A stretch of 64,000 bases of DNA, taken from sequence record NC_023693.1; one strand, written 5' to 3'. Below are positions 5,005 to 63,603 of this stretch, piece after piece. The translations under genes were made by a program, and so were the position numbers. This DNA comes from Escherichia phage phi92. How positions within the stretch are numbered: the first letter of the stretch is position 1; the number at the start of each line of letters is the position of its first letter. The notes beneath the pieces are model-generated. The model saw only the letters and a program-made list of their open reading frames with translations. It had not been told where the DNA came from and ran no database searches.

Positions 5005-5031
5005 AAAATAAAGGGGCTTTCGCCCCTTTTT
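5005..5031. terminator. bidirectional rho-independent terminator-like hairpin
   Basis: AGGGGC-TTTC-GCCCCT stem-loop flanked by A-run and T-run. Confidence 0.6.
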
Positions 5032-57280: not shown

Positions 57281-57303
57281 AAAAGGGGCGAAAGCCCCTT
57301 TAT
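57281..57303 (+). terminator. rho-independent terminator
   Basis: AGGGGC-GAAA-GCCCCT followed by TTAT. Confidence 0.65.
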
Positions 57304-57318: not shown

Positions 57319-59280
57319 GTGATTTTAACACGTCCAAATAGTGCCATTGCAGACATGGTAGAGTCTCGCTATAGAAAGCGTAGAAGTTTTGCAAGTGGTT
57401 TTACCTTAAGAGATGCTCGTGAAGCATTGCTCTTTGAAACTGACGGTAACTACTATCAGTGGAAAGGTTCTCTACCTAAAGTTGTACCTGCTAACTCTAC
57501 TCCTACATCTACTGGAGGGATTTCAGATACAGCTTGGAAAAATGTGGGTAATGCAGATGACATTGCTCAAATAGAATCAGAATTAGATGCTATTGAAGCT
57601 GAAATTGAAGATCTTAGAGAATCCATCCCAGAAGCTGGTAAATCAGCTTACCAAATTGCCGTAGACAATGGTTTCCAAGGTACTGAGACACAGTGGTTGG
57701 CTTCTTTAAAAGGTGATCCAGGTGCTCCATTAAAGCTACTAGGGACGCTATCTAATACCAACCAATTACCTACAACTGGAAACAATGCAGGGGATGCATG
57801 GATTGTAGGCGAGAATATGTATGCTTGGGATGGTACTGCTTGGAGAAAAGTAAACTCACAGGGGCCAGAAGGTAAATCTGCTTATGAAGTATGGCTTGCA
57901 GCAGGAAACGAAGGTACAGAACTAGATTATCTTGCCGCAATTAAAGGTGATAAAGGGGAGCCTGGCCCAGAGGGGCCACAAGGTGTGCCAGGTAATAATG
58001 CTAATGGTTTTGATTACCAAGGCGCAGCTAATTCCGTTTCAGATCTTCCTTCTGCATCTCCTGGAAACACATCTCAAGCATGGAGTATTGGTACATATCT
58101 ATACGTGTCAAACGGTGTAGAATGGATCAATATGGGCGCTATAGTGGGGCCAAAAGGAGATAAAGGCGACAAAGGAGATAAGGGTAACACTGGTGATTCA
58201 GCTTATCAAGTCTGGTTAAATGCTGGTAACGTTGGTACTATTGACGAATATATTGCCTCTCTGAAAGGAGAAAAAGGTGATAAGGGAGACAAGGGTGATC
58301 AAGGTGCACAGGGTATACAAGGCTTGACGGGGCCAACTGGTGCAGGGTTGACCATTATTGACATTCTGACTAGCACTTCTGAACTACCACAAACTGGAGA
58401 AGATGGTGATGGTTATCTGATCAATAATGAACTTTGGGTCTGGTTGCAAGGAGCCACAGAGTGGACAAATGTTGGTCGTTTAGCTGGTACTCCAATCACT
58501 GCAAAAGGATACGTTGCGTCTGCAAGTGCACTTCCTCCTACAGCCAATTACGGTGATGCTTATCTGACGGAAGATACAGGTCATCTTTACATTTACACCT
58601 ATGATGAACAAACTCAAACTGCTGAATATGTAGATATGGGTAGTTTGAAAGGTGATAAGGGTGAAAAAGGTGACGCTGGTACTAACGGTACAGACGGTGC
58701 AACTTGGATTGTTAAAACAACAGATCCAATCTCTAGTGATGGTAAACAAGGTGATTATGCCTTTAATATCTCCACTGGCGAGGTGTTCTTAAAAACATCT
58801 GCAACTATCTGGACTTCTCAAGGTACACTACCTAGTATCACAGATGCACCTAGTGATGGTAAGACTTATGCTCGTAAAGATGGAGCATGGGAAGAACTCA
58901 CTAATTCTGTAGATGGTCAAGATATAGTTCCAACAAAAGTAACAACTAATTTTATAGAGGTTACAGCATATACTAACAATTCTGTTACAGGGGACTGGAC
59001 ACCTCCAGGAACACATAACATGAATGTGTTGAATCTTACTGGTAACTCTACTATAAAAGCATGGCCTGGTGTCGAAGATAGCACAAAACCTAAACCATTC
59101 TCTGCAATAGTTTATCTTATCCAAGATGCCACTGGAGGTCGTACTGTTACTTTAGATCCATCTTACAAAGTAATTGGTTCCAGTGATATTAATACAGATC
59201 CTAACGGAGTAACAATACTACAACTAACATATTGTGGTGTTGGCGATTACGTGGATGCTATTGTTGCTAAACGCACATAA
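57319..59280 (+). CDS. tail fibre with collagen-like Gly-X-Y repeats
   Basis: runs such as GDKGEPGPEGPQGVPG and GEKGDKGDKGDQGAQGIQGLTGPTGAG. Confidence 0.65.
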   Translation: MILTRPNSAIADMVESRYRKRRSFASGFTLRDAREALLFETDGNYYQWKGSLPKVVPANSTPTSTGGISDTAWKNVGNADDIAQIESELDAIEAEIEDLRESIPEAGKSAYQIAVDNGFQGTETQWLASLKGDPGAPLKLLGTLSNTNQLPTTGNNAGDAWIVGENMYAWDGTAWRKVNSQGPEGKSAYEVWLAAGNEGTELDYLAAIKGDKGEPGPEGPQGVPGNNANGFDYQGAANSVSDLPSASPGNTSQAWSIGTYLYVSNGVEWINMGAIVGPKGDKGDKGDKGNTGDSAYQVWLNAGNVGTIDEYIASLKGEKGDKGDKGDQGAQGIQGLTGPTGAGLTIIDILTSTSELPQTGEDGDGYLINNELWVWLQGATEWTNVGRLAGTPITAKGYVASASALPPTANYGDAYLTEDTGHLYIYTYDEQTQTAEYVDMGSLKGDKGEKGDAGTNGTDGATWIVKTTDPISSDGKQGDYAFNISTGEVFLKTSATIWTSQGTLPSITDAPSDGKTYARKDGAWEELTNSVDGQDIVPTKVTTNFIEVTAYTNNSVTGDWTPPGTHNMNVLNLTGNSTIKAWPGVEDSTKPKPFSAIVYLIQDATGGRTVTLDPSYKVIGSSDINTDPNGVTILQLTYCGVGDYVDAIVAKRT

Positions 59281-59282
59281 TC

Positions 59283-59306
59283 AAAGCCCCTTCGGGGGCT
59301 TATTAT
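59283..59306 (+). terminator. rho-independent terminator
   Basis: AGCCCC-TTCG-GGGGCT followed by T-rich tract. Confidence 0.65.
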
Positions 59307-59319
59307 TTAAGGAGATTAA

Positions 59320-59928
59320 ATGTATCCTATTCCTTTATTTATGTCAACAACATCAGCTTCAGTAGTAACAGCTACATCTATAACTACTTCCTCTATTGGT
59401 ATTGCAATAGTTGGTGGTAAAAAACAACTGACATACACAGTTACACCGGAAGATGGTGCATTATTTGATATAGCTTTTTCATCTTCAGATAATACCAAAA
59501 TGGTTATAGATAATAGTGGTATGATGGAGTTTGTTGCCGAAGGTGGTTTTGATGCAATAATGACAGCTAAAAATAATTTAGGTGCTGTCTTAACTGATCA
59601 ATCTGGTGGCTATGCTTCAGAATTAAGTGTGTACACTGAAAGTCTATCGGCTATGGATGTAGGCACTACTCAACAGTTGGTTGCTACAATCAGTCCAGAA
59701 GGTGCTAAAGACCTTCCAGATATGGTAATTACATACACCACAACAGATCCAGAAGTAGCTACTGTAAGCCCTACAGGGTTAATAACTGCTCTTAAAGATG
59801 GCGGTTGCCGTATAGGTTGTACTGCAACGTATCAAGGAACAGTTGTGGCCTCTGATAGGTCTTATTTAGGTGTTAATGCTATTCCTGTTATTTCTAATGT
59901 AACAGCCGTATCTTTAATAACTCAATAG
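59320..59928 (+). CDS. Ig-like (Big_2-type) domain protein
   Basis: two Ig-like repeats (VATVSPTGLITALKDGG pattern), Ser/Thr-rich N-terminus. Confidence 0.5.
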   Translation: MYPIPLFMSTTSASVVTATSITTSSIGIAIVGGKKQLTYTVTPEDGALFDIAFSSSDNTKMVIDNSGMMEFVAEGGFDAIMTAKNNLGAVLTDQSGGYASELSVYTESLSAMDVGTTQQLVATISPEGAKDLPDMVITYTTTDPEVATVSPTGLITALKDGGCRIGCTATYQGTVVASDRSYLGVNAIPVISNVTAVSLITQ

Positions 59929-60982
59929 CTACAGATGATTCGTTCATTAAAGAAGTTATTGTCTTTGCTGGACAAGATAACGTAAATGCACACTTTACAG
60001 AACTATCTGGTGCAAATAAAGCAGCAATGAGTAGCACAACAGCCCGTAATGCATATGCTACGCAACGTGGTTTAGCAAATGCTGAAGTTCTTCCGTGTTA
60101 AATACAGCTTCTGGATCATCAGCAGCAGATAAATATGCTGACGATAAAGCTGGAACAGGTACACCAGATAACTACTGGTATGATCTGGATAACACAGCAG
60201 ATGGGCCATGCTTAACTAACTTTATCACTAAAGTCACACCTTATGCAAGTAAGGTTAAAGCAATTATTTGGGGACAAGGTGAAAATGATGCTGTATCAGC
60301 ATCTTCGACTGTTGCAGGTAGGTACAGTAACACTACACGTTACCATGATGCTACGATAGCTATCTTTGATAAGATGCGTACAATAGTTCCTGCTTCTCAA
60401 GCAAAAATTGTTTGGCAGATCCTAGGACGTTCTTATTTATATGGTGTAGAAGTTAATGGTGTGGATTGGCAGAAGTACAGAAATGTACAAAGAACCATCT
60501 CTACAGCACGTGATGATGTTATCATTGGTTCTTGGGTAGATGGTGCTGAACGTTACAGTGGTTATGTTTATGAAGAAGGTATTGATGGTCGTATCCATTA
60601 TATTTCTTCTGTATACCAAACAGCAGCTACAAAACTTGCTAAATCAGCAGCAGACGGTACAGATTTAACATCAACGTCACCTGTTTGGGTTGATATGTCT
60701 GTTCCAACAGGAGGAGCCGCTGTAAGACAAGCTAACCAAGATGTAATTATCTCTTGGGAACCAGCAGGATATACTAAACATTACTTCCGAAATGTAAACG
60801 TCCTCACAGCAGCAATTCTTACAGAACAAACCCTGGATACTAACACTTACACATTTACTTATGCAGATCAGGTTGAACAATATGGATTTGCAGCAGGTAC
60901 AACAGTGTTTGATGTTGCACACTATGATGCTGATAATGACGTGTTATCACCTCTTGTCAGATTTACAGTCAATGTTACATAA
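59898..60982 (+). pseudogene. SGNH/SASA-like esterase gene split across two reading frames (frameshifted or recoded)
   Basis: open frame 59898-60098 with no ATG near its start encodes VFAGQDNVNAH (GQSN-like block); continues in another frame from 60095 with IIWGQGENDA; the preceding Ig-like ORF ends at 59928 in a third frame. Confidence 0.4.
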
Positions 60983-60985
60983 ACA

Positions 60986-61010
60986 AAAAGGAGCCATTAG
61001 GCTCCTTTTC
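60986..61010. terminator. bidirectional terminator hairpin (copy 1 of repeated hairpin)
   Basis: AAAAGGAGCC-ATTA-GGCTCCTTTT between convergent genes. Confidence 0.65.
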
Positions 61011-61017
61011 TTTTATC

Positions 61018-61449
61018 TTAATCAGTGAAAATTACGCTTACATCTTCTTTAGAGAAGAGTTTATGATCTTCACCTTTTGTCTCAAGAGTTTCATACAGAT
61101 TAAGAAGTTCTGAAACGTCTTTCTCTACCAGTTTCTTCAATGTTGCAATTTTCTGTTTGCGACTCTTAATACGTTCAGCTACAACCTTACGCTGGTATCC
61201 GGCAGTACGATAACCTGAGAAAGTTACACCAGTGAGACTTGCAGTTACAGGATCGTAGTGACGTTCAATCTGAAATTTATTAAAAGGTACAGCGTCATCA
61301 CGAATAATCTTACCGCCATTACTTACTTGACGAAGACCAGTAACTTGCTCCAGTCGTGCCATAGAAATCTTTGGAGACAGACCAGAGTCTAGGTTCATAC
61401 CATTGTTAATCAGTGCTTTCAGGGTGATTTTGCTGTTCAGTGTACTCAT
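61018..61449 (-). CDS. hypothetical protein (143 aa)
   Basis: ORF downstream of methyltransferase gene on the same strand. Confidence 0.4.
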   Translation of the reverse strand: MSTLNSKITLKALINNGMNLDSGLSPKISMARLEQVTGLRQVSNGGKIIRDDAVPFNKFQIERHYDPVTASLTGVTFSGYRTAGYQRKVVAERIKSRKQKIATLKKLVEKDVSELLNLYETLETKGEDHKLFSKEDVSVIFTD

Positions 61450-62137
61450 TTAGTCGTTCCTCCGCTTGCTTAAAAATATTTACATCGGCTTCACAGCCAA
61501 AGTATTCTCTACCTGTTAAAAGTGCCGCAACTTGTGTTGTTGCACTTCCAGAGAAGAAGTCTAAGACTACATCTCCTTCGTTGGTGTGTATATTAATAAG
61601 GTCACAAAACAAAGTCAAGTGTTTTTGTGTTGGATGAAAACGATCTGCTCCTTGATAGATAGGATACTCAAACACACCCTTATGGTAGGAAGCATTGAAG
61701 GTTGGCTTCGAACCTTTAACACAAACAATAGCCATCTCTTTAGCGTTACTAAGATAGTTAACACCACTGTTGATGGGTACAGGGTTTGTTTTAATCCATT
61801 CAATAGTACGGAACATACGAAAACCAAGCGGTTCAAGGATTTCACGTAGCTCCTGGATCTTCCAGATATCATACCAAACTATGCAAGTACCACCTTTTCT
61901 AAGCACCCTGTAGGCTTCTTTGAATACTTCTTTAAAGTAAGGAATATCTACAACATCCCAATCACCAAAGTTGTAAGATACACGGAATCTATCCGTATCT
62001 TTTCCAGTCGGCTCTCCAGATTGAAAATTTGTGTCACGAGAAATAGCATATGGTGGGTCAGTAAGAATCAAATCTACACTATTGCTTTCGAGGGTTTGCA
62101 GGTAGTTTAATGCGGTGTTGTTTACAAATTCGCTCAT
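61406..62137 (-). CDS. DNA methyltransferase (amino-methyltransferase, N6-adenine or N4-cytosine)
   Basis: catalytic DPPY (LILTDPPYA) near N-terminus and AdoMet-binding FFSGSATT near C-terminus. Confidence 0.8.
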   Translation of the reverse strand: MSEFVNNTALNYLQTLESNSVDLILTDPPYAISRDTNFQSGEPTGKDTDRFRVSYNFGDWDVVDIPYFKEVFKEAYRVLRKGGTCIVWYDIWKIQELREILEPLGFRMFRTIEWIKTNPVPINSGVNYLSNAKEMAIVCVKGSKPTFNASYHKGVFEYPIYQGADRFHPTQKHLTLFCDLINIHTNEGDVVLDFFSGSATTQVAALLTGREYFGCEADVNIFKQAEERLNEYTEQQNHPESTD

Positions 62138-62150
62138 TATATCTCCTTCA

Positions 62151-62175
62151 AAGAAAAGGAGCCGTTAGGCTCCTT
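62151..62175. terminator. terminator hairpin (copy 2 of repeated hairpin)
   Basis: AAAGGAGCC-GTTA-GGCTCCTT, near-identical to the hairpin at 60986-61010. Confidence 0.6.
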
Positions 62176-62197
62176 ATATTCACACAATACTTAACTA

Positions 62198-63145
62198 TTA
62201 GAAACAGTGCAGGAAGTTTCGACCATACTGCAAACCAATAGGAGCAAATGGGATATCATCATCGAAATCTTGAACAACAGGTTCTGATTCTTTCGGTGCT
62301 GGCTCTTTCTTCTCTACTTTTTTAGTTTCTTTCTTAACTTCTTGTACTGAGGTAGACATTCCACGGATAGCAGCAGCTACTTTATCAGACAAAGCAAGAA
62401 CTTCACGAGCAGCTTCAATAATCTCTTCTGCCGTTACAGTTTTACCTGTATGATCACGACAAGCGTTAAGAATTGCGTGTCCAACTGAAGCACCAAGATC
62501 ATAGTCAGTCGCAGCAGCGCCACGATCTTTAGCAATTTCTGCTTTCAGAGTAACAGTTGCAGATTGTACCACACCAGCCAAGTCGAAAGCATCACCTTTC
62601 ACACCAGCACGTAGAAGCTCCAGAGCGCCGTTTACAGCGTGTCCTGTTTCAATCCCTACGGTATCACGTTTTTTGTAGTTAGGCTTGCTACCTTCGTTAT
62701 TAGATGGCTTATTTCCACCTTTTGAAGAAGATTGTGCTTGCTGAACACCTTCTGTTGAAAGAACAGTGATTTTACCTTTAGAGGAGTTGTAGTATGTTTT
62801 GCCATTCCATTCGGAAGGTTTAACATCTATAGTTACTTCTACACCTTTTTCGATAGTAATCCACTTATCACCATCTTTAACTTGCAGGTTTTCATGTTCT
62901 GGGTGCAGTTTAACTTCACCTAGGCTAACCCAAACACCTTTATCATCAGCACCAGCACCTTTCTCTTTAATAAGCAGAGATGCTTTGTGAGTTGATTCAA
63001 TTTTCTTATCTGGCTGACCTGCAACCTTAATATAAGAGACTTTCATTTCATCAAACTTATCCAGTTTGACATATTCAACGATACCTTCAGCCCAGAATGC
63101 TTCTTTTTTAGTACGACGGTCGATTTCAGAATTAATTACTGGCAT
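62198..63145 (-). CDS. single-stranded DNA-binding protein-like
   Basis: C-terminal acidic tail DFDDDIPF identical in form to the bacterial SSB tip; Gly/Ser/Asn-rich linker. Confidence 0.55.
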   Translation of the reverse strand: MPVINSEIDRRTKKEAFWAEGIVEYVKLDKFDEMKVSYIKVAGQPDKKIESTHKASLLIKEKGAGADDKGVWVSLGEVKLHPEHENLQVKDGDKWITIEKGVEVTIDVKPSEWNGKTYYNSSKGKITVLSTEGVQQAQSSSKGGNKPSNNEGSKPNYKKRDTVGIETGHAVNGALELLRAGVKGDAFDLAGVVQSATVTLKAEIAKDRGAAATDYDLGASVGHAILNACRDHTGKTVTAEEIIEAAREVLALSDKVAAAIRGMSTSVQEVKKETKKVEKKEPAPKESEPVVQDFDDDIPFAPIGLQYGRNFLHCF

Positions 63146-63161
63146 AAATTCTCCTCTATAA

Positions 63162-63560
63162 TTACATTACTTTAACACAAAACTCTCGTAAAAGAGTAGC
63201 GTCAGTTTCTTCCAACAGGTATTTACCAAGACCAATACCAAATCCTATTTCACCACTTTCGAAATGGAGGATTTGTATCTTTTCTCCACCAAGGTTAATT
63301 ACTTTTGCTTTTCCAGGATTATCCAAAACATCTCGTATTGTATCCTGTAGTAGCATTAGTTCACGTTTTGTGATAGTGGTTTCAGATATCTCTTTGTTTT
63401 CTACTCTCACTGTTAAACGGTTGTATCCACCAAAGAGACATAGTATTTGAATAAAAAAGGTATTATCTTGAGGTTCAACATCTTTTTTAGTTAGCTCAAG
63501 ACGATTAGTTTCTCTACTGTAGAACGTCTCGACTAAGATTTTAGAACGATTATCTGTCAT
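63162..63560 (-). CDS. hypothetical protein (132 aa)
   Basis: ORF only. Confidence 0.35.
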   Translation of the reverse strand: MTDNRSKILVETFYSRETNRLELTKKDVEPQDNTFFIQILCLFGGYNRLTVRVENKEISETTITKRELMLLQDTIRDVLDNPGKAKVINLGGEKIQILHFESGEIGFGIGLGKYLLEETDATLLREFCVKVM

Positions 63561-63603
63561 TCAAGTCCTCATAATAACACATAATTACAATGTTTGTCAA
63601 CAC

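What the first reader, a model, noticed from the sequence alone, without database searches (positions are those of the whole stretch)
60986..62175. Methyltransferase cassette bracketed by two near-identical hairpins
A leftward DNA methyltransferase gene (DPPY, FxGxG-like motifs) and a 143-aa ORF are flanked by AAAAGGAGCC-ATTA-GGCTCCTT at 60986-61010 and AAAGGAGCC-GTTA-GGCTCCTT at 62151-62175. The pair sits opposite in orientation to the structural genes ending at 60982. The repeated hairpin suggests an insulated moron-like insertion that gives anti-restriction protection through self-methylation.
Basis: partly seen in the sequence, partly recalled or inferred. Interest (0 to 1): 0.5.

Follow-up and report, generated by a model that had tools for sequence, protein, structure and literature searches.

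The report
Phage methylase gene pair between terminators
The two look-alike hairpins are ordinary transcription terminators flanking an accessory two-gene unit in a phi92-like E. coli phage; the unit is a DNA methyltransferase plus a small uncharacterised protein that sits directly downstream of a phage methyltransferase gene in most lineages examined.

Summary
The window is a Justusliebigvirus (phi92-like) phage. Both hairpins are stable terminator-like stem-loops. They bracket phi92 gp155, a beta-class DPPY DNA methyltransferase (PF01555), and gp154 (143 aa), which overlap by 44 nt.

All about 54 sequenced Justusliebigvirus genomes have the pair at this site. Phapecoctavirus, two Klebsiella relatives and the vequintavirus Mydo lack it and have one hairpin between the tail gene and the SSB gene. 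So it is an old, fixed accessory insertion at a bidirectional terminator, not a recent moron. It has no promoter of its own, no base-composition anomaly, and lies on the same strand as the adjacent replication genes. It is probably expressed by read-through of the right hairpin from a promoter at 63571-63600.

Similar hairpins are not a reliable insertion scar. This genome's terminators fall into few sequence classes, and two relatives carry a different upstream hairpin. Other relatives, however, keep the same GGAGCC hairpin on both sides of gp154 alone, with its own promoter.

The main new point is that gp154 lies directly downstream of a methyltransferase gene in about 10 of 13 lineages, across two apparently unrelated methyltransferase types. 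Its model suggests a winged-helix domain plus a coiled coil. Anti-restriction remains unproven.

The parts
60986..61009 (.). Left hairpin tL: predicted bidirectional intrinsic terminator between the convergent tail gene (stop at 60982) and gp154 (stop at 61018). T-runs follow it on both strands.
   Evidence: Homologous in position and stem to the single hairpin of phages that lack the gene pair.
61018..61449 (-). gp154 homologue, 143 aa. Uncharacterised family that usually follows a methyltransferase gene. The model shows a winged-helix-like N-terminal domain, a 43-residue helix and a short C-terminal helix.
   Evidence: pLDDT 95; fold searches; gene neighbourhoods.
61458..61463 (-). Shine-Dalgarno sequence GGAGGA, 8 nt upstream of the gp154 ATG and inside the methyltransferase coding region.
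   Evidence: Read. The conserved N-terminal helix of the family lies upstream of the internal Met18, so the ATG at 61449 is the start.
61406..62137 (-). gp155 homologue, 243 aa: beta-class DNA methyltransferase (motif IV DPPY near the N-terminus, motif I FSGSA near the C-terminus), probably N6-adenine. Its 3' end overlaps gp154 by 44 nt.
   Evidence: PF01555, 3.4e-30; closest solved structure 5hek, labelled 'DpnA', 1.8e-28; then CcrM.
62143..62148 (-). Shine-Dalgarno sequence AAGGAG of the methyltransferase gene, directly after the T-run of the right hairpin.
   Evidence: The same arrangement is seen in L007.
62148..62175 (-). Right hairpin tR (stem-loop 62156-62175) plus its T-run TTTTCTTT on the - strand (the last two stem T's plus TTCTTT at 62150-62155). 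Predicted leftward terminator or attenuator between SSB and the methyltransferase. The + strand has no T-run.
   Evidence: The sequence GGAGCC-TAAC-GGCTCCTTTTCTTT is identical in L007 and L161, and the stem and T-run are shared by L143/L145.
62198..63145 (-). SSB-like gene (phi92 gp156 homologue), the gene immediately upstream on the same strand.
   Evidence: annotated as SSB in several related records.
63162..63560 (-). gp157 homologue, first gene of the putative transcription unit.
63571..63600 (-). Best sigma70-like promoter in the region (TTGACA-18-TATTAT with TG, 11 of 12 matches), the likely source of transcripts that reach the gene pair.
   Evidence: This is a consensus match only.
60095..60982 (+). 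3' part of the rightward tail protein gene, whose transcript tL would terminate.
   Evidence: (phrog_32204).

Best explanation
The region is a two-gene DNA-methylation unit attached to the 3' end of the leftward replication-gene operon of a phi92-like phage.

The unit consists of gp155, a minimal beta-class DPPY methyltransferase that probably makes N6-methyladenine, and gp154, a small partner gene that overlaps it by 44 nt and has its own ribosome-binding site. The overlap suggests, but does not show, that the two are translated together.

The left hairpin is the ancestral bidirectional intrinsic terminator where rightward tail-gene transcription and leftward replication-gene transcription converge. 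The right hairpin is the original SSB terminator, or a copy of it. It now lies inside the operon and has a T-run only on the leftward strand.

No promoter fits between the right hairpin and the methyltransferase ATG. The pair is therefore most likely expressed by partial read-through from the promoter at 63571-63600, through gp157 and SSB. That would give much less methyltransferase than SSB, at the time the phage replicates its DNA.

An ancestor shared by Justusliebigvirus and some uncultured relatives acquired the unit at a junction that is empty in sister lineages and is a recurrent insertion site.

Shown here: the anatomy, the homologies, presence and absence among relatives, and the link between gp154 and methyltransferase genes. 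Inferred: terminator activity, read-through expression, adenine specificity, and what the methylation is for. Protection of progeny DNA from some host restriction systems is the default guess.
For: Anatomy and terminator predictions.

Methyltransferase identity. Strong purifying selection: 77-86% amino-acid identity across relatives whose SSBs are 57-76% identical.

Presence in all Justusliebigvirus records.

Empty junction with one hairpin: Phapecoctavirus (L002, L003), Klebsiella phi1_175008 (L004), FBKp34 (L011) and the vequintavirus Mydo (L012).

Same gene order, SSB - hairpin - methyltransferase - gp154 - hairpin - tail gene, in the divergent metagenomic relatives L006-L009 (L010 shows only part of it).

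The right hairpin sequence is conserved in L007 and L161, its stem and T-run in L143/L145, and it matches the single hairpin of phage G1.

Promoter.

gp154 next to a methyltransferase gene: PF01555 directly upstream in L140/L141 and in 16 of 23 further loci; a small NPPF-type methyltransferase upstream in L136-L139.

Phage Paula's public annotation already marks terminators at both positions.
Against: No transcript data exist. The right hairpin may terminate efficiently, which would require an unrecognised phage-specific promoter.

Motif I departs from FxGxG (it reads FSGSA), so activity is assumed rather than shown.

The direction of change (gain versus loss) rests on a few outgroups and on single-gene identities, not on a rooted genome tree.

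L006 and L008 have a different (GGGGC-type) upstream hairpin, so duplication of the terminator at the time of insertion is not proven.

L143/L145 and phage J2-1 carry a gp154-like gene with no adjacent methyltransferase, so gp154 can exist without one next to it.

Phi92-like phages were highly sensitive to the restriction-modification systems tested (PMC8594841).
Confidence: 0.7

Rival explanations
1. One reading: a recently acquired, self-contained and transcriptionally insulated moron, whose duplicated hairpin is the scar of insertion and whose purpose is anti-restriction by self-methylation.
For: The junction is empty in sister genera. Both flanking hairpins are terminators. L143/L145 show a promoter-plus-gene unit between two GGAGCC hairpins at the same site. 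Orphan phage methyltransferases are commonly assumed to protect against restriction; this is what the BME3 paper says of its methyltransferases (PMC12210895).
Against: There is no promoter and no space for one; 18 nt separate the hairpin from the ATG. GC content is about 0.39, as in the flanks. The pair is fixed at 99-100% protein identity in about 54 genomes and is present in relatives with only 55-65% gp154 identity, so it is old. It is co-oriented with the replication genes. Phi92-like phages plate poorly on the restriction-modification strains tested.
Confidence: 0.15
2. The similarity of the two hairpins is convergence within a small terminator sequence space and says nothing about history. 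The two terminators arose independently.
For: Four of about eleven terminator hairpins in the window share the GGGGC-tetraloop-GCCCC design. The tail-fibre gene 57319-59280 is also bracketed by two of them. The GGAGCC stem occurs in at least 120 IMG/VR viral contigs. L006 and L008 use GGGGC-type hairpins upstream of the methyltransferase. The left-hairpin loop varies among close relatives while the right-hairpin loop does not, so there is no ongoing homogenisation.
Against: GGAGCC hairpins with the same TTTTCTTT tail occur at both flanks in two separate lineages (this window; L143/L145/L161). The same hairpin is the single one in cassette-less phage G1.
Confidence: 0.3
3. The pair is ancestral to the whole subfamily and was deleted in Phapecoctavirus and the Klebsiella phages by recombination between the two directly repeated hairpins, leaving one hairpin.
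For: A 20-24 bp direct repeat flanking 1.1 kb is a plausible substrate for deletion. The cassette-less phage G1 retains a single hairpin resembling both copies.
Against: The more distant FBKp34 and the vequintavirus Mydo also lack the pair. No Phapecoctavirus hit to gp154 was found anywhere in those genomes, and none appeared among the listed methyltransferase hits. This scenario needs several independent losses against one gain.
Confidence: 0.12
4. The two genes form a selfish or toxic pair, such as a miniature restriction-modification or toxin-antitoxin-like unit in which gp154 is the nuclease or toxin and the methyltransferase protects against it.
For: Tight linkage, with the methyltransferase gene first and overlapping the second gene, across two apparently unrelated methyltransferase families. 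The family has invariant charged residues (R50, D52, and E34 nearly invariant).
Against: There is no match to any nuclease family, PADLOC model or solved structure by sequence. The confident model shows a winged-helix-like domain plus a coiled coil, not a nuclease core. gp154-like genes occur without an adjacent methyltransferase in L143/L145 and J2-1.
Confidence: 0.08

Closest known systems
Phi92_gp155 / Phi92_gp154 and their flanking terminators, as annotated in Escherichia phage Paula (LR865361) and other Justusliebigvirus genomes
   Same: Same genes at 99-100% protein identity and the same context. Paula's record already annotates terminators at both hairpin positions.
   Different: Nothing structural. 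Public records call gp154 hypothetical and do not comment on the insertion or on its link to methyltransferase genes.
Minimal beta-class N6-adenine methyltransferases: PDB 5hek/5hfj (deposited as 'DpnA'; from memory, Helicobacter pylori M1.HpyAVI) and CcrM (6pbd)
   Same: PF01555 fold, motif order IV then I, a DPPY catalytic motif, about 240 aa with no separate target-recognition domain.
   Different: Only distant sequence similarity (E 1.8e-28 and 1.9e-16). Specificity cannot be transferred. Motif I is FSGSA. The gene comes with a small partner gene that is not part of what I recall of those enzymes.
Morons of lambdoid phages (Hendrix/Juhala sense, from memory): a promoter-gene-terminator unit inserted between conserved genes
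   Same: An accessory insertion between conserved genes, followed by a terminator, present or absent among relatives. The L143/L145 version has all the parts.
   Different: In this window there is no promoter of its own and no compositional difference. The phage is described as lytic, and the insertion is fixed across a genus.
Overlapping methyltransferase-partner gene pairs: E. coli dcm-vsr, and phage Mu com-mom (both from memory)
   Same: A DNA-modification gene overlapping a small gene whose product acts on the same pathway, transcribed together.
   Different: gp154 has no similarity to Vsr or Com. It lies downstream of an adenine-type methyltransferase, and its fold looks like a winged helix plus a coiled coil.
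Winged-helix dimeric DNA-binding proteins (MarR family, CodY C-terminal domain, RepE, B. subtilis replication terminator protein)
   Same: These are the recurrent top fold matches to the N-terminal 60-65 residues. The long helix matches coiled coils, as in the replication terminator protein.

Membership tests
Rho-independent (intrinsic) terminator | G+C-rich stem with a short loop, stable as RNA | tested here: met
   Left: 10-11 bp stem, 4-nt loop, -17.4 and -20.6 kcal/mol. Right: 8 bp stem, 4-nt loop, about -13 to -15 kcal/mol. z = -2.6 to -7.
Rho-independent (intrinsic) terminator | U-rich tract immediately 3' of the stem on the transcribed strand | tested here: met
   The left hairpin has one on both strands (TTTTCTTTT and TTTTTGTTT). 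The right hairpin has one only on the - strand (TTTTCTTT); the + strand reads TTATATTC.
Rho-independent (intrinsic) terminator | Position just downstream of a stop codon, conserved in relatives | tested here: met
   3 and 8 nt from the stops at the left hairpin, 22 nt from the SSB stop at the right hairpin. A hairpin occupies both positions in L006-L010, L143-L145 and L161 even where its sequence differs.
Rho-independent (intrinsic) terminator | Measured termination of transcription | not testable with these tools
   No transcript data are available.
Beta-class N6/N4 DNA methyltransferase (PF01555) | Profile match above the curated cut-off | tested here: met
   106.1 bits against a cut-off of 26.7, covering profile positions 1-221. 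Also phrog_67 at 6e-56 and PADLOC MTase_II at 3.6e-46.
Beta-class N6/N4 DNA methyltransferase (PF01555) | Motif IV (D/S)PP(Y/F) placed N-terminal to motif I (circular permutation of the beta class) | tested here: met
   DPPY at residues 27-30 and motif I at 195-199.
Beta-class N6/N4 DNA methyltransferase (PF01555) | Canonical AdoMet-binding motif I, FxGxG | tested here: inconclusive
   It reads F-S-G-S-A. This is invariant in four relatives with 77-86% identity, while the 54%-identical L140 enzyme has FLGSG.
Beta-class N6/N4 DNA methyltransferase (PF01555) | Methyltransferase activity and target sequence | not testable with these tools
   No methylome data were found in the papers searched.
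Moron (accessory transcription unit) | Present in some related genomes and absent from the same site in others | tested here: met
   Present in Justusliebigvirus and L006-L010. Absent in Phapecoctavirus, the Klebsiella relatives and Mydo. Not variable within the genus.
Moron (accessory transcription unit) | A promoter of its own | tested here: not met
   No sigma70-like site lies between 62137 and 62200 on the - strand, and only 18 nt separate the hairpin from the ATG. The feature is met in L143/L145 (TTGACG-17-TAATAT).
Moron (accessory transcription unit) | A terminator of its own | tested here: met
   The left hairpin lies 8 nt after the gp154 stop.
Moron (accessory transcription unit) | Base composition different from the surrounding genome | tested here: not met
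   GC is 0.37-0.41 across 61000-62200, compared with 0.35-0.45 in the flanks.
Type II restriction-modification system | A cognate restriction endonuclease gene next to the methyltransferase | tested here: not met
   gp154 matches no nuclease family in Pfam, NCBIfam, PADLOC or PDB sequences, and its model is winged-helix-like plus coiled coil.
gp154 family (phrog_20244; methyltransferase-linked small protein, defined here) | About 125-143 aa with the conserved core LGL..TG.S...LE...G.RQ.SNG..IIR.D..PF..F.I.......L..V.F.GY followed by a long helix | tested here: met
   Alignment A4 of 29 sequences with invariant G23, S25, R50, D52, F77 and G79. The profile search found 32 cluster representatives with E up to 0.001.
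gp154 family (phrog_20244; methyltransferase-linked small protein, defined here) | Gene lies directly downstream of, and usually overlaps, a DNA methyltransferase gene | tested here: met
   44-nt overlap in the window. The same arrangement holds in about 10 of 13 lineages examined, with either PF01555 or small NPPF-type methyltransferases.

The most novel reading that the evidence does not exclude
gp154 defines an undescribed family of small winged-helix/coiled-coil proteins that work with minimal phage DNA methyltransferases lacking a target-recognition domain. It might be a DNA-targeting subunit or a factor that reads or regulates the methyl mark. If so, many 'orphan' phage methyltransferases would really be two-component systems, and the unit would be an exchangeable piece that moves between phages of different kinds and lands at terminator junctions.
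Probability: 0.35. Interest if true: 0.6.

Novelty: new variant of a known kind. Interest (0 to 1): 0.38.

Why it matters
The hairpins and the methyltransferase are routine phage genome features and are already annotated in public records, so on their own they score low.

Two results go beyond that. First, the junction between the tail gene and the SSB gene in phi92-like and phAPEC8-like phages exists in at least four states. It can be empty, or hold gp154 with its own promoter, or hold the methyltransferase plus gp154. On top of these, an HNH endonuclease (or, in one relative, an unidentified ORF) may be inserted next to the terminator. This is a clear natural example of accessory genes accumulating at a bidirectional terminator.

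Second, the 'hypothetical' 143-aa gene is linked to methyltransferase genes of two apparently unrelated families across many phage lineages. That makes a specific idea testable: that small phage methyltransferases need, or are controlled by, a dedicated DNA-binding partner. This bears on how phage methylation specificity and anti-restriction are predicted from sequence, for example in choosing therapeutic phages.

Tried and rejected
- gp154 modelled from 4 sequences gave pLDDT 53 and was discarded. The 29-sequence alignment gave pLDDT 95.
- gp154 matched no family in Pfam, NCBIfam or PADLOC; the wider gp154 family matched nothing in Pfam or in PDB sequences, and four further members matched nothing in PADLOC. 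A single NUMOD4 hit (E 0.011 in 1 of 29 members) was treated as noise.
- The search for related loci with the broad alignment failed because no stretch was conserved enough. The close alignment found only near-identical phages in IMG/VR.
- The phi92 genome paper (PMC3457257) is not held. No paper found reports methylation or methyltransferase function for this genus.
- A compositional signature of foreign origin was looked for; none was found.
- A sigma70-like promoter between the right hairpin and the methyltransferase was looked for; none was found. A weak TGTGAATAT element overlapping the hairpin reaches only about 6 of 12 consensus positions and was rejected.
- Recent recombination as the reason for the identical right hairpin in L007 was considered. 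The high-identity patch is only about 60-90 nt around the hairpin and ribosome-binding site, so this looks like constraint rather than a recombination tract.
- No attempt was made to infer the methylation target from sequence; the closest characterised enzymes are too distant.
Full report
**What the window is.** The 3.2 kb around the finding is 96-99% identical to about 54 GenBank phage genomes of the genus Justusliebigvirus (phi92-like myoviruses of about 146 kb, subfamily Stephanstirmvirinae). In phage Paula the same genes are labelled Phi92_gp153 (tail component), gp154 (hypothetical), gp155 (site-specific DNA methyltransferase), gp156, gp157, gp158 and DNA polymerase. Terminators are annotated at both hairpin positions in that record.

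**Checking the observation.**
- The left hairpin is AAAAGGAGCC-ATTA-GGCTCCTTTT at 60986-61009. It lies 3 nt after the stop of the rightward tail gene (60982) and 8 nt before the stop of the leftward 143-aa ORF (61018).
- The right hairpin is AAGGAGCC-GTTA-GGCTCCTT at 62156-62175. It lies 22 nt after the stop of the leftward SSB-like gene (62198) and 18 nt before the methyltransferase ATG (62137).
- The pattern occurs only twice in the window, against 0.01 expected.
- Both hairpins are called terminator-like, the left on both strands and the right on the - strand only. Both are stable as RNA.
- The 243-aa ORF is a PF01555 methyltransferase with DPPY at residues 27-30. Its motif I reads FSGSA.

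The description is therefore accurate. One omission matters: the pair lies on the same strand as the neighbouring replication genes, so it is not an oppositely oriented island.

**How special the repeated hairpin is.** It is less special than the shuffle test suggests.
- A scan of the whole window finds about eleven terminator hairpins. Four share one design, AAGGGGC-tetraloop-GCCCCTT, at 5010, 8593, 57283 and 59284. Two of these bracket the tail-fibre gene 57319-59280.
- The AAGGAGCC-N4-GGCTCCTT stem turns up in at least 120 IMG/VR viral contigs, listed under many different contig ids; their relatedness was not examined.
- Terminators therefore occupy a small sequence space, and two similar neighbours are not in themselves evidence of duplication.

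**Comparison with relatives.** At the DNA level, Phapecoctavirus and Klebsiella relatives match the query only from the SSB gene onward. In two of them the match begins exactly at the right hairpin.
- In vB_Ec-G1, phAPEC8_ev052 and Klebsiella phage phi1_175008 the tail gene and the SSB gene converge on an intergenic spacer of about 50-65 nt that holds one hairpin. Examples are GAAAAGGAGCC-ATTT-GGCTCCTTTCTTTTAT in G1 and AAAAGGGAGCC-AAT-GGCTCCCTTT in phi1_175008.
- The more distant Klebsiella phage FBKp34 also has a tail gene converging on SSB with one hairpin and no methyltransferase, though its spacer is longer (about 160 nt). So does the vequintavirus Proteus phage Mydo.
- tblastn found gp154 in no phage outside Justusliebigvirus except a 33%-identical protein in Pseudoalteromonas phage J2-1. 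The next-best phage methyltransferase is only 37% identical.

The pair is therefore accessory at the subfamily level, and the simplest reading is one gain. It is not recent. It is present in every Justusliebigvirus record at 99-100% protein identity, and its GC content is indistinguishable from the flanks.

Metagenomic relatives with gp154 at only 55-65% identity (L006, a 151.5-kb contig; L007; L008 and L009) have the same order: DNA polymerase ... gp157 - SSB - hairpin - methyltransferase - gp154 - hairpin - tail gene. L010 is a short contig with different genes upstream of the methyltransferase.

**What those relatives say about the hairpins.** Both positions always carry a terminator-like hairpin, but the sequences are not always alike.
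- L006 has GGGGC-TTCG-GCCCC upstream and GGGAGCCTC-TTGC-GAGGTTCCC downstream.
- L008 has GGGGCTGC-TTGT-AGCCCC upstream and GGGAGCC-AAT-GGCTCCC downstream. The latter is identical to the single hairpin of phi1_175008.
- L007 has an upstream hairpin identical to the window's right hairpin, including the T-run and ribosome-binding site, but a different downstream one.
- A further group of contigs of about 38-148 kb (L143-L145, L161-L163; SSB about 60% identical in L143/L145) has SSB - AAGGGAGCC-GAAA-GGCTCCTTTTCTTTT - a sigma70-like promoter (TTGACG-17-TAATAT) - a gp154-like gene at 38% identity - AAAAGGAGCC-TTTC-GGCTCCTTTTTT - tail gene, with no methyltransferase. In L161 the upstream loop is TAAC, as in the window.

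The sequence GGAGCC...GGCTCCTTTTCTT is thus the old SSB/tail terminator. It is retained downstream of SSB in several lineages, and a second copy follows the inserted gene or genes in at least two lineages.

This fits duplication of the terminator at insertion, with later replacement in L006 and L008, but it does not prove it.

The two copies look functionally specialised. The left one keeps T-runs on both strands. The right one keeps a T-run only on the leftward strand.

Within the genus the left-hairpin loop varies (TAAT, its inversion ATTA, and AATA) while the stems are kept. That is what a purely structural constraint predicts.

**Expression.** Only 18 nt separate the right hairpin from the methyltransferase ATG, and they are filled by the T-run and an AAGGAG ribosome-binding site. 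No promoter-like site lies there. The best promoter in the region (TTGACA-18-TATTAT with TG, 11 of 12 matches) sits at 63571-63600, upstream of gp157.

The likely transcription unit is therefore promoter - gp157 - SSB - right hairpin - methyltransferase - gp154 - left hairpin, with the right hairpin acting as an attenuator. This is inference; no transcript data are available.

**The methyltransferase.**
- It is a beta-class enzyme with motif IV before motif I.
- The closest solved structures are 5hek/5hfj, adenine-specific enzymes of 232-240 residues deposited as 'DpnA' (E 1.8e-28), and then CcrM.
- It is more conserved among relatives (77-86% identity) than SSB (57-76%) or gp154 (55-65%). This indicates selection for function despite the unusual motif I.
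- Its target sequence cannot be inferred.
- The genus encodes other methyltransferases as well, gp043 and gp056 (the BME3 paper counts four).

Anti-restriction is therefore a reasonable default but has no direct support.

**The 143-aa ORF.** This is the more interesting part.
- A profile search of 1.84 billion cluster representatives finds 32 proteins with E up to 0.001. Nearly all are stand-alone proteins of 100-143 aa sharing a conserved core; the exceptions are two short fragments, one 206-aa protein and two very large repeat proteins that I disregarded.
- None of the family members tested matches Pfam, PADLOC or PDB sequences, and gp154 itself matches nothing in NCBIfam.
- With the 29-sequence alignment, AlphaFold gives a confident model (pLDDT 95). 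It has a small alpha/beta N-terminal domain, a 43-residue helix and a short C-terminal helix.
- The fold matches are weak. Repeatedly, though, they are winged-helix DNA-binding domains (CodY C-terminal domain, PefI, SarA, MarR family, CtsR, RepE, TFE-alpha, replication terminator protein) for residues 1-80, and coiled coils for the long helix.

Its gene neighbourhoods are consistent:
- In L140/L141 (neighbouring ORFs match a T7 gp5.9 family and DUF3310) a 29%-identical member follows a PF01555 methyltransferase that is 54% identical to the window's.
- In 16 of 23 further loci a PF01555 gene of 232-242 aa where complete (it is cut short in two loci) lies directly upstream, overlapping by 4-35 nt.
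- In L136-L139 the upstream, overlapping gene is a methyltransferase-like protein of 172-190 aa with an NPPF motif. It is of the phi92 gp056 kind and gives weak PF07669 hits.
- The exceptions are the L143/L145 group, phage J2-1, and the short contig L164, whose upstream ORF is unidentified.

About 10 of 13 lineages therefore pair this gene with a methyltransferase. Two apparently unrelated methyltransferase types are involved, and both are minimal enzymes with no obvious target-recognition domain.

In the window the gp154 start at 61449 is preceded by GGAGGA. The family's conserved N-terminal helix lies upstream of the internal Met18, so the 44-nt overlap with the methyltransferase gene is real.

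I read gp154 as a DNA-binding partner of the methyltransferase, either a targeting subunit or a regulator or reader of the mark. This is an inference from linkage and a weak fold resemblance.

**Verdict.** The hairpins are ordinary terminators. The methyltransferase pair is an old, fixed accessory insertion at a bidirectional terminator that has repeatedly accepted extra genes. HNH endonuclease ORFs lie between SSB and the hairpin in L007 and L144, and an unidentified 140-aa ORF lies there in L161.

'Insulated moron' and 'anti-restriction' do not follow from the evidence. The unannotated link between gp154 and methyltransferase genes is the part worth an experiment.

Noticed in passing
window 62198-62245 (3' end of the SSB gene, - strand): The SSB-like protein continues for 15 residues after the canonical C-terminal DDDIPF (...DFDDDIPFAPIGLQYGRNFLHCF*). 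The SSBs of phAPEC8_ev052, Klebsiella phi1_175008, L007 and L143/L145 end at IPF. Phapecoctavirus G1 shares the extension. From memory, a free C-terminal IPF is normally needed for partner binding, so this is odd.
   Followed up: partly
window 59320-60982: The tail protein gene is a single 628-aa CDS in phage muut. In this window it is broken by a 218-nt deletion (muut locus L165 630-847 is absent) and a further frame change near 60090. This leaves ORFs 59320-59928 and 60095-60982. It may be a genuine pseudogene or an assembly error.
   Followed up: partly
window 57283-57300 and 59284-59301: The 653-aa collagen-repeat tail-fibre gene (57319-59280) is also bracketed by two near-identical hairpins: AAGGGGC-TTTC-GCCCCTT and AAGCCCC-TTCG-GGGGCTT. 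The same GGGGC design recurs at 5010 and 8593.
   Followed up: partly
L007 269-700; L144 3347-3853; L161 2770-3192: ORFs sit between the SSB stop codon and the upstream hairpin in three relatives. L144's matches HNH_3 (E 1.9e-13), L007's has HNH-like zinc-finger sequence features, and L161's 140-aa ORF was not identified. The spot seems to be a recurrent landing site for mobile genes.
   Followed up: partly
L134 6445-6460, L135 6445-6460, compared with window 60996-60999: The loop of the left hairpin differs among closely related phages: TAAT in the window and Paula, ATTA (its exact inversion) in L134, and AATA in L135. The stems are unchanged. This suggests loop flipping at the palindrome.
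   Followed up: no
GenBank MG065639, MG065645, MG065656 and MG065689 (hits H2-H4, H26): Four records named 'Campylobacter phage', with Campylobacter jejuni given as host, are 98.8% identical to this E. coli phage genus. They are probably mislabelled or contaminants.
   Followed up: no
L005 3980-4393 (Pseudoalteromonas phage J2-1): This phage has a 33%-identical gp154-like gene among nucleotide-metabolism genes, near a gene annotated as an HNH endonuclease (no Pfam hit here), with no adjacent methyltransferase. It is one of the few members not next to a methyltransferase gene.
   Followed up: partly
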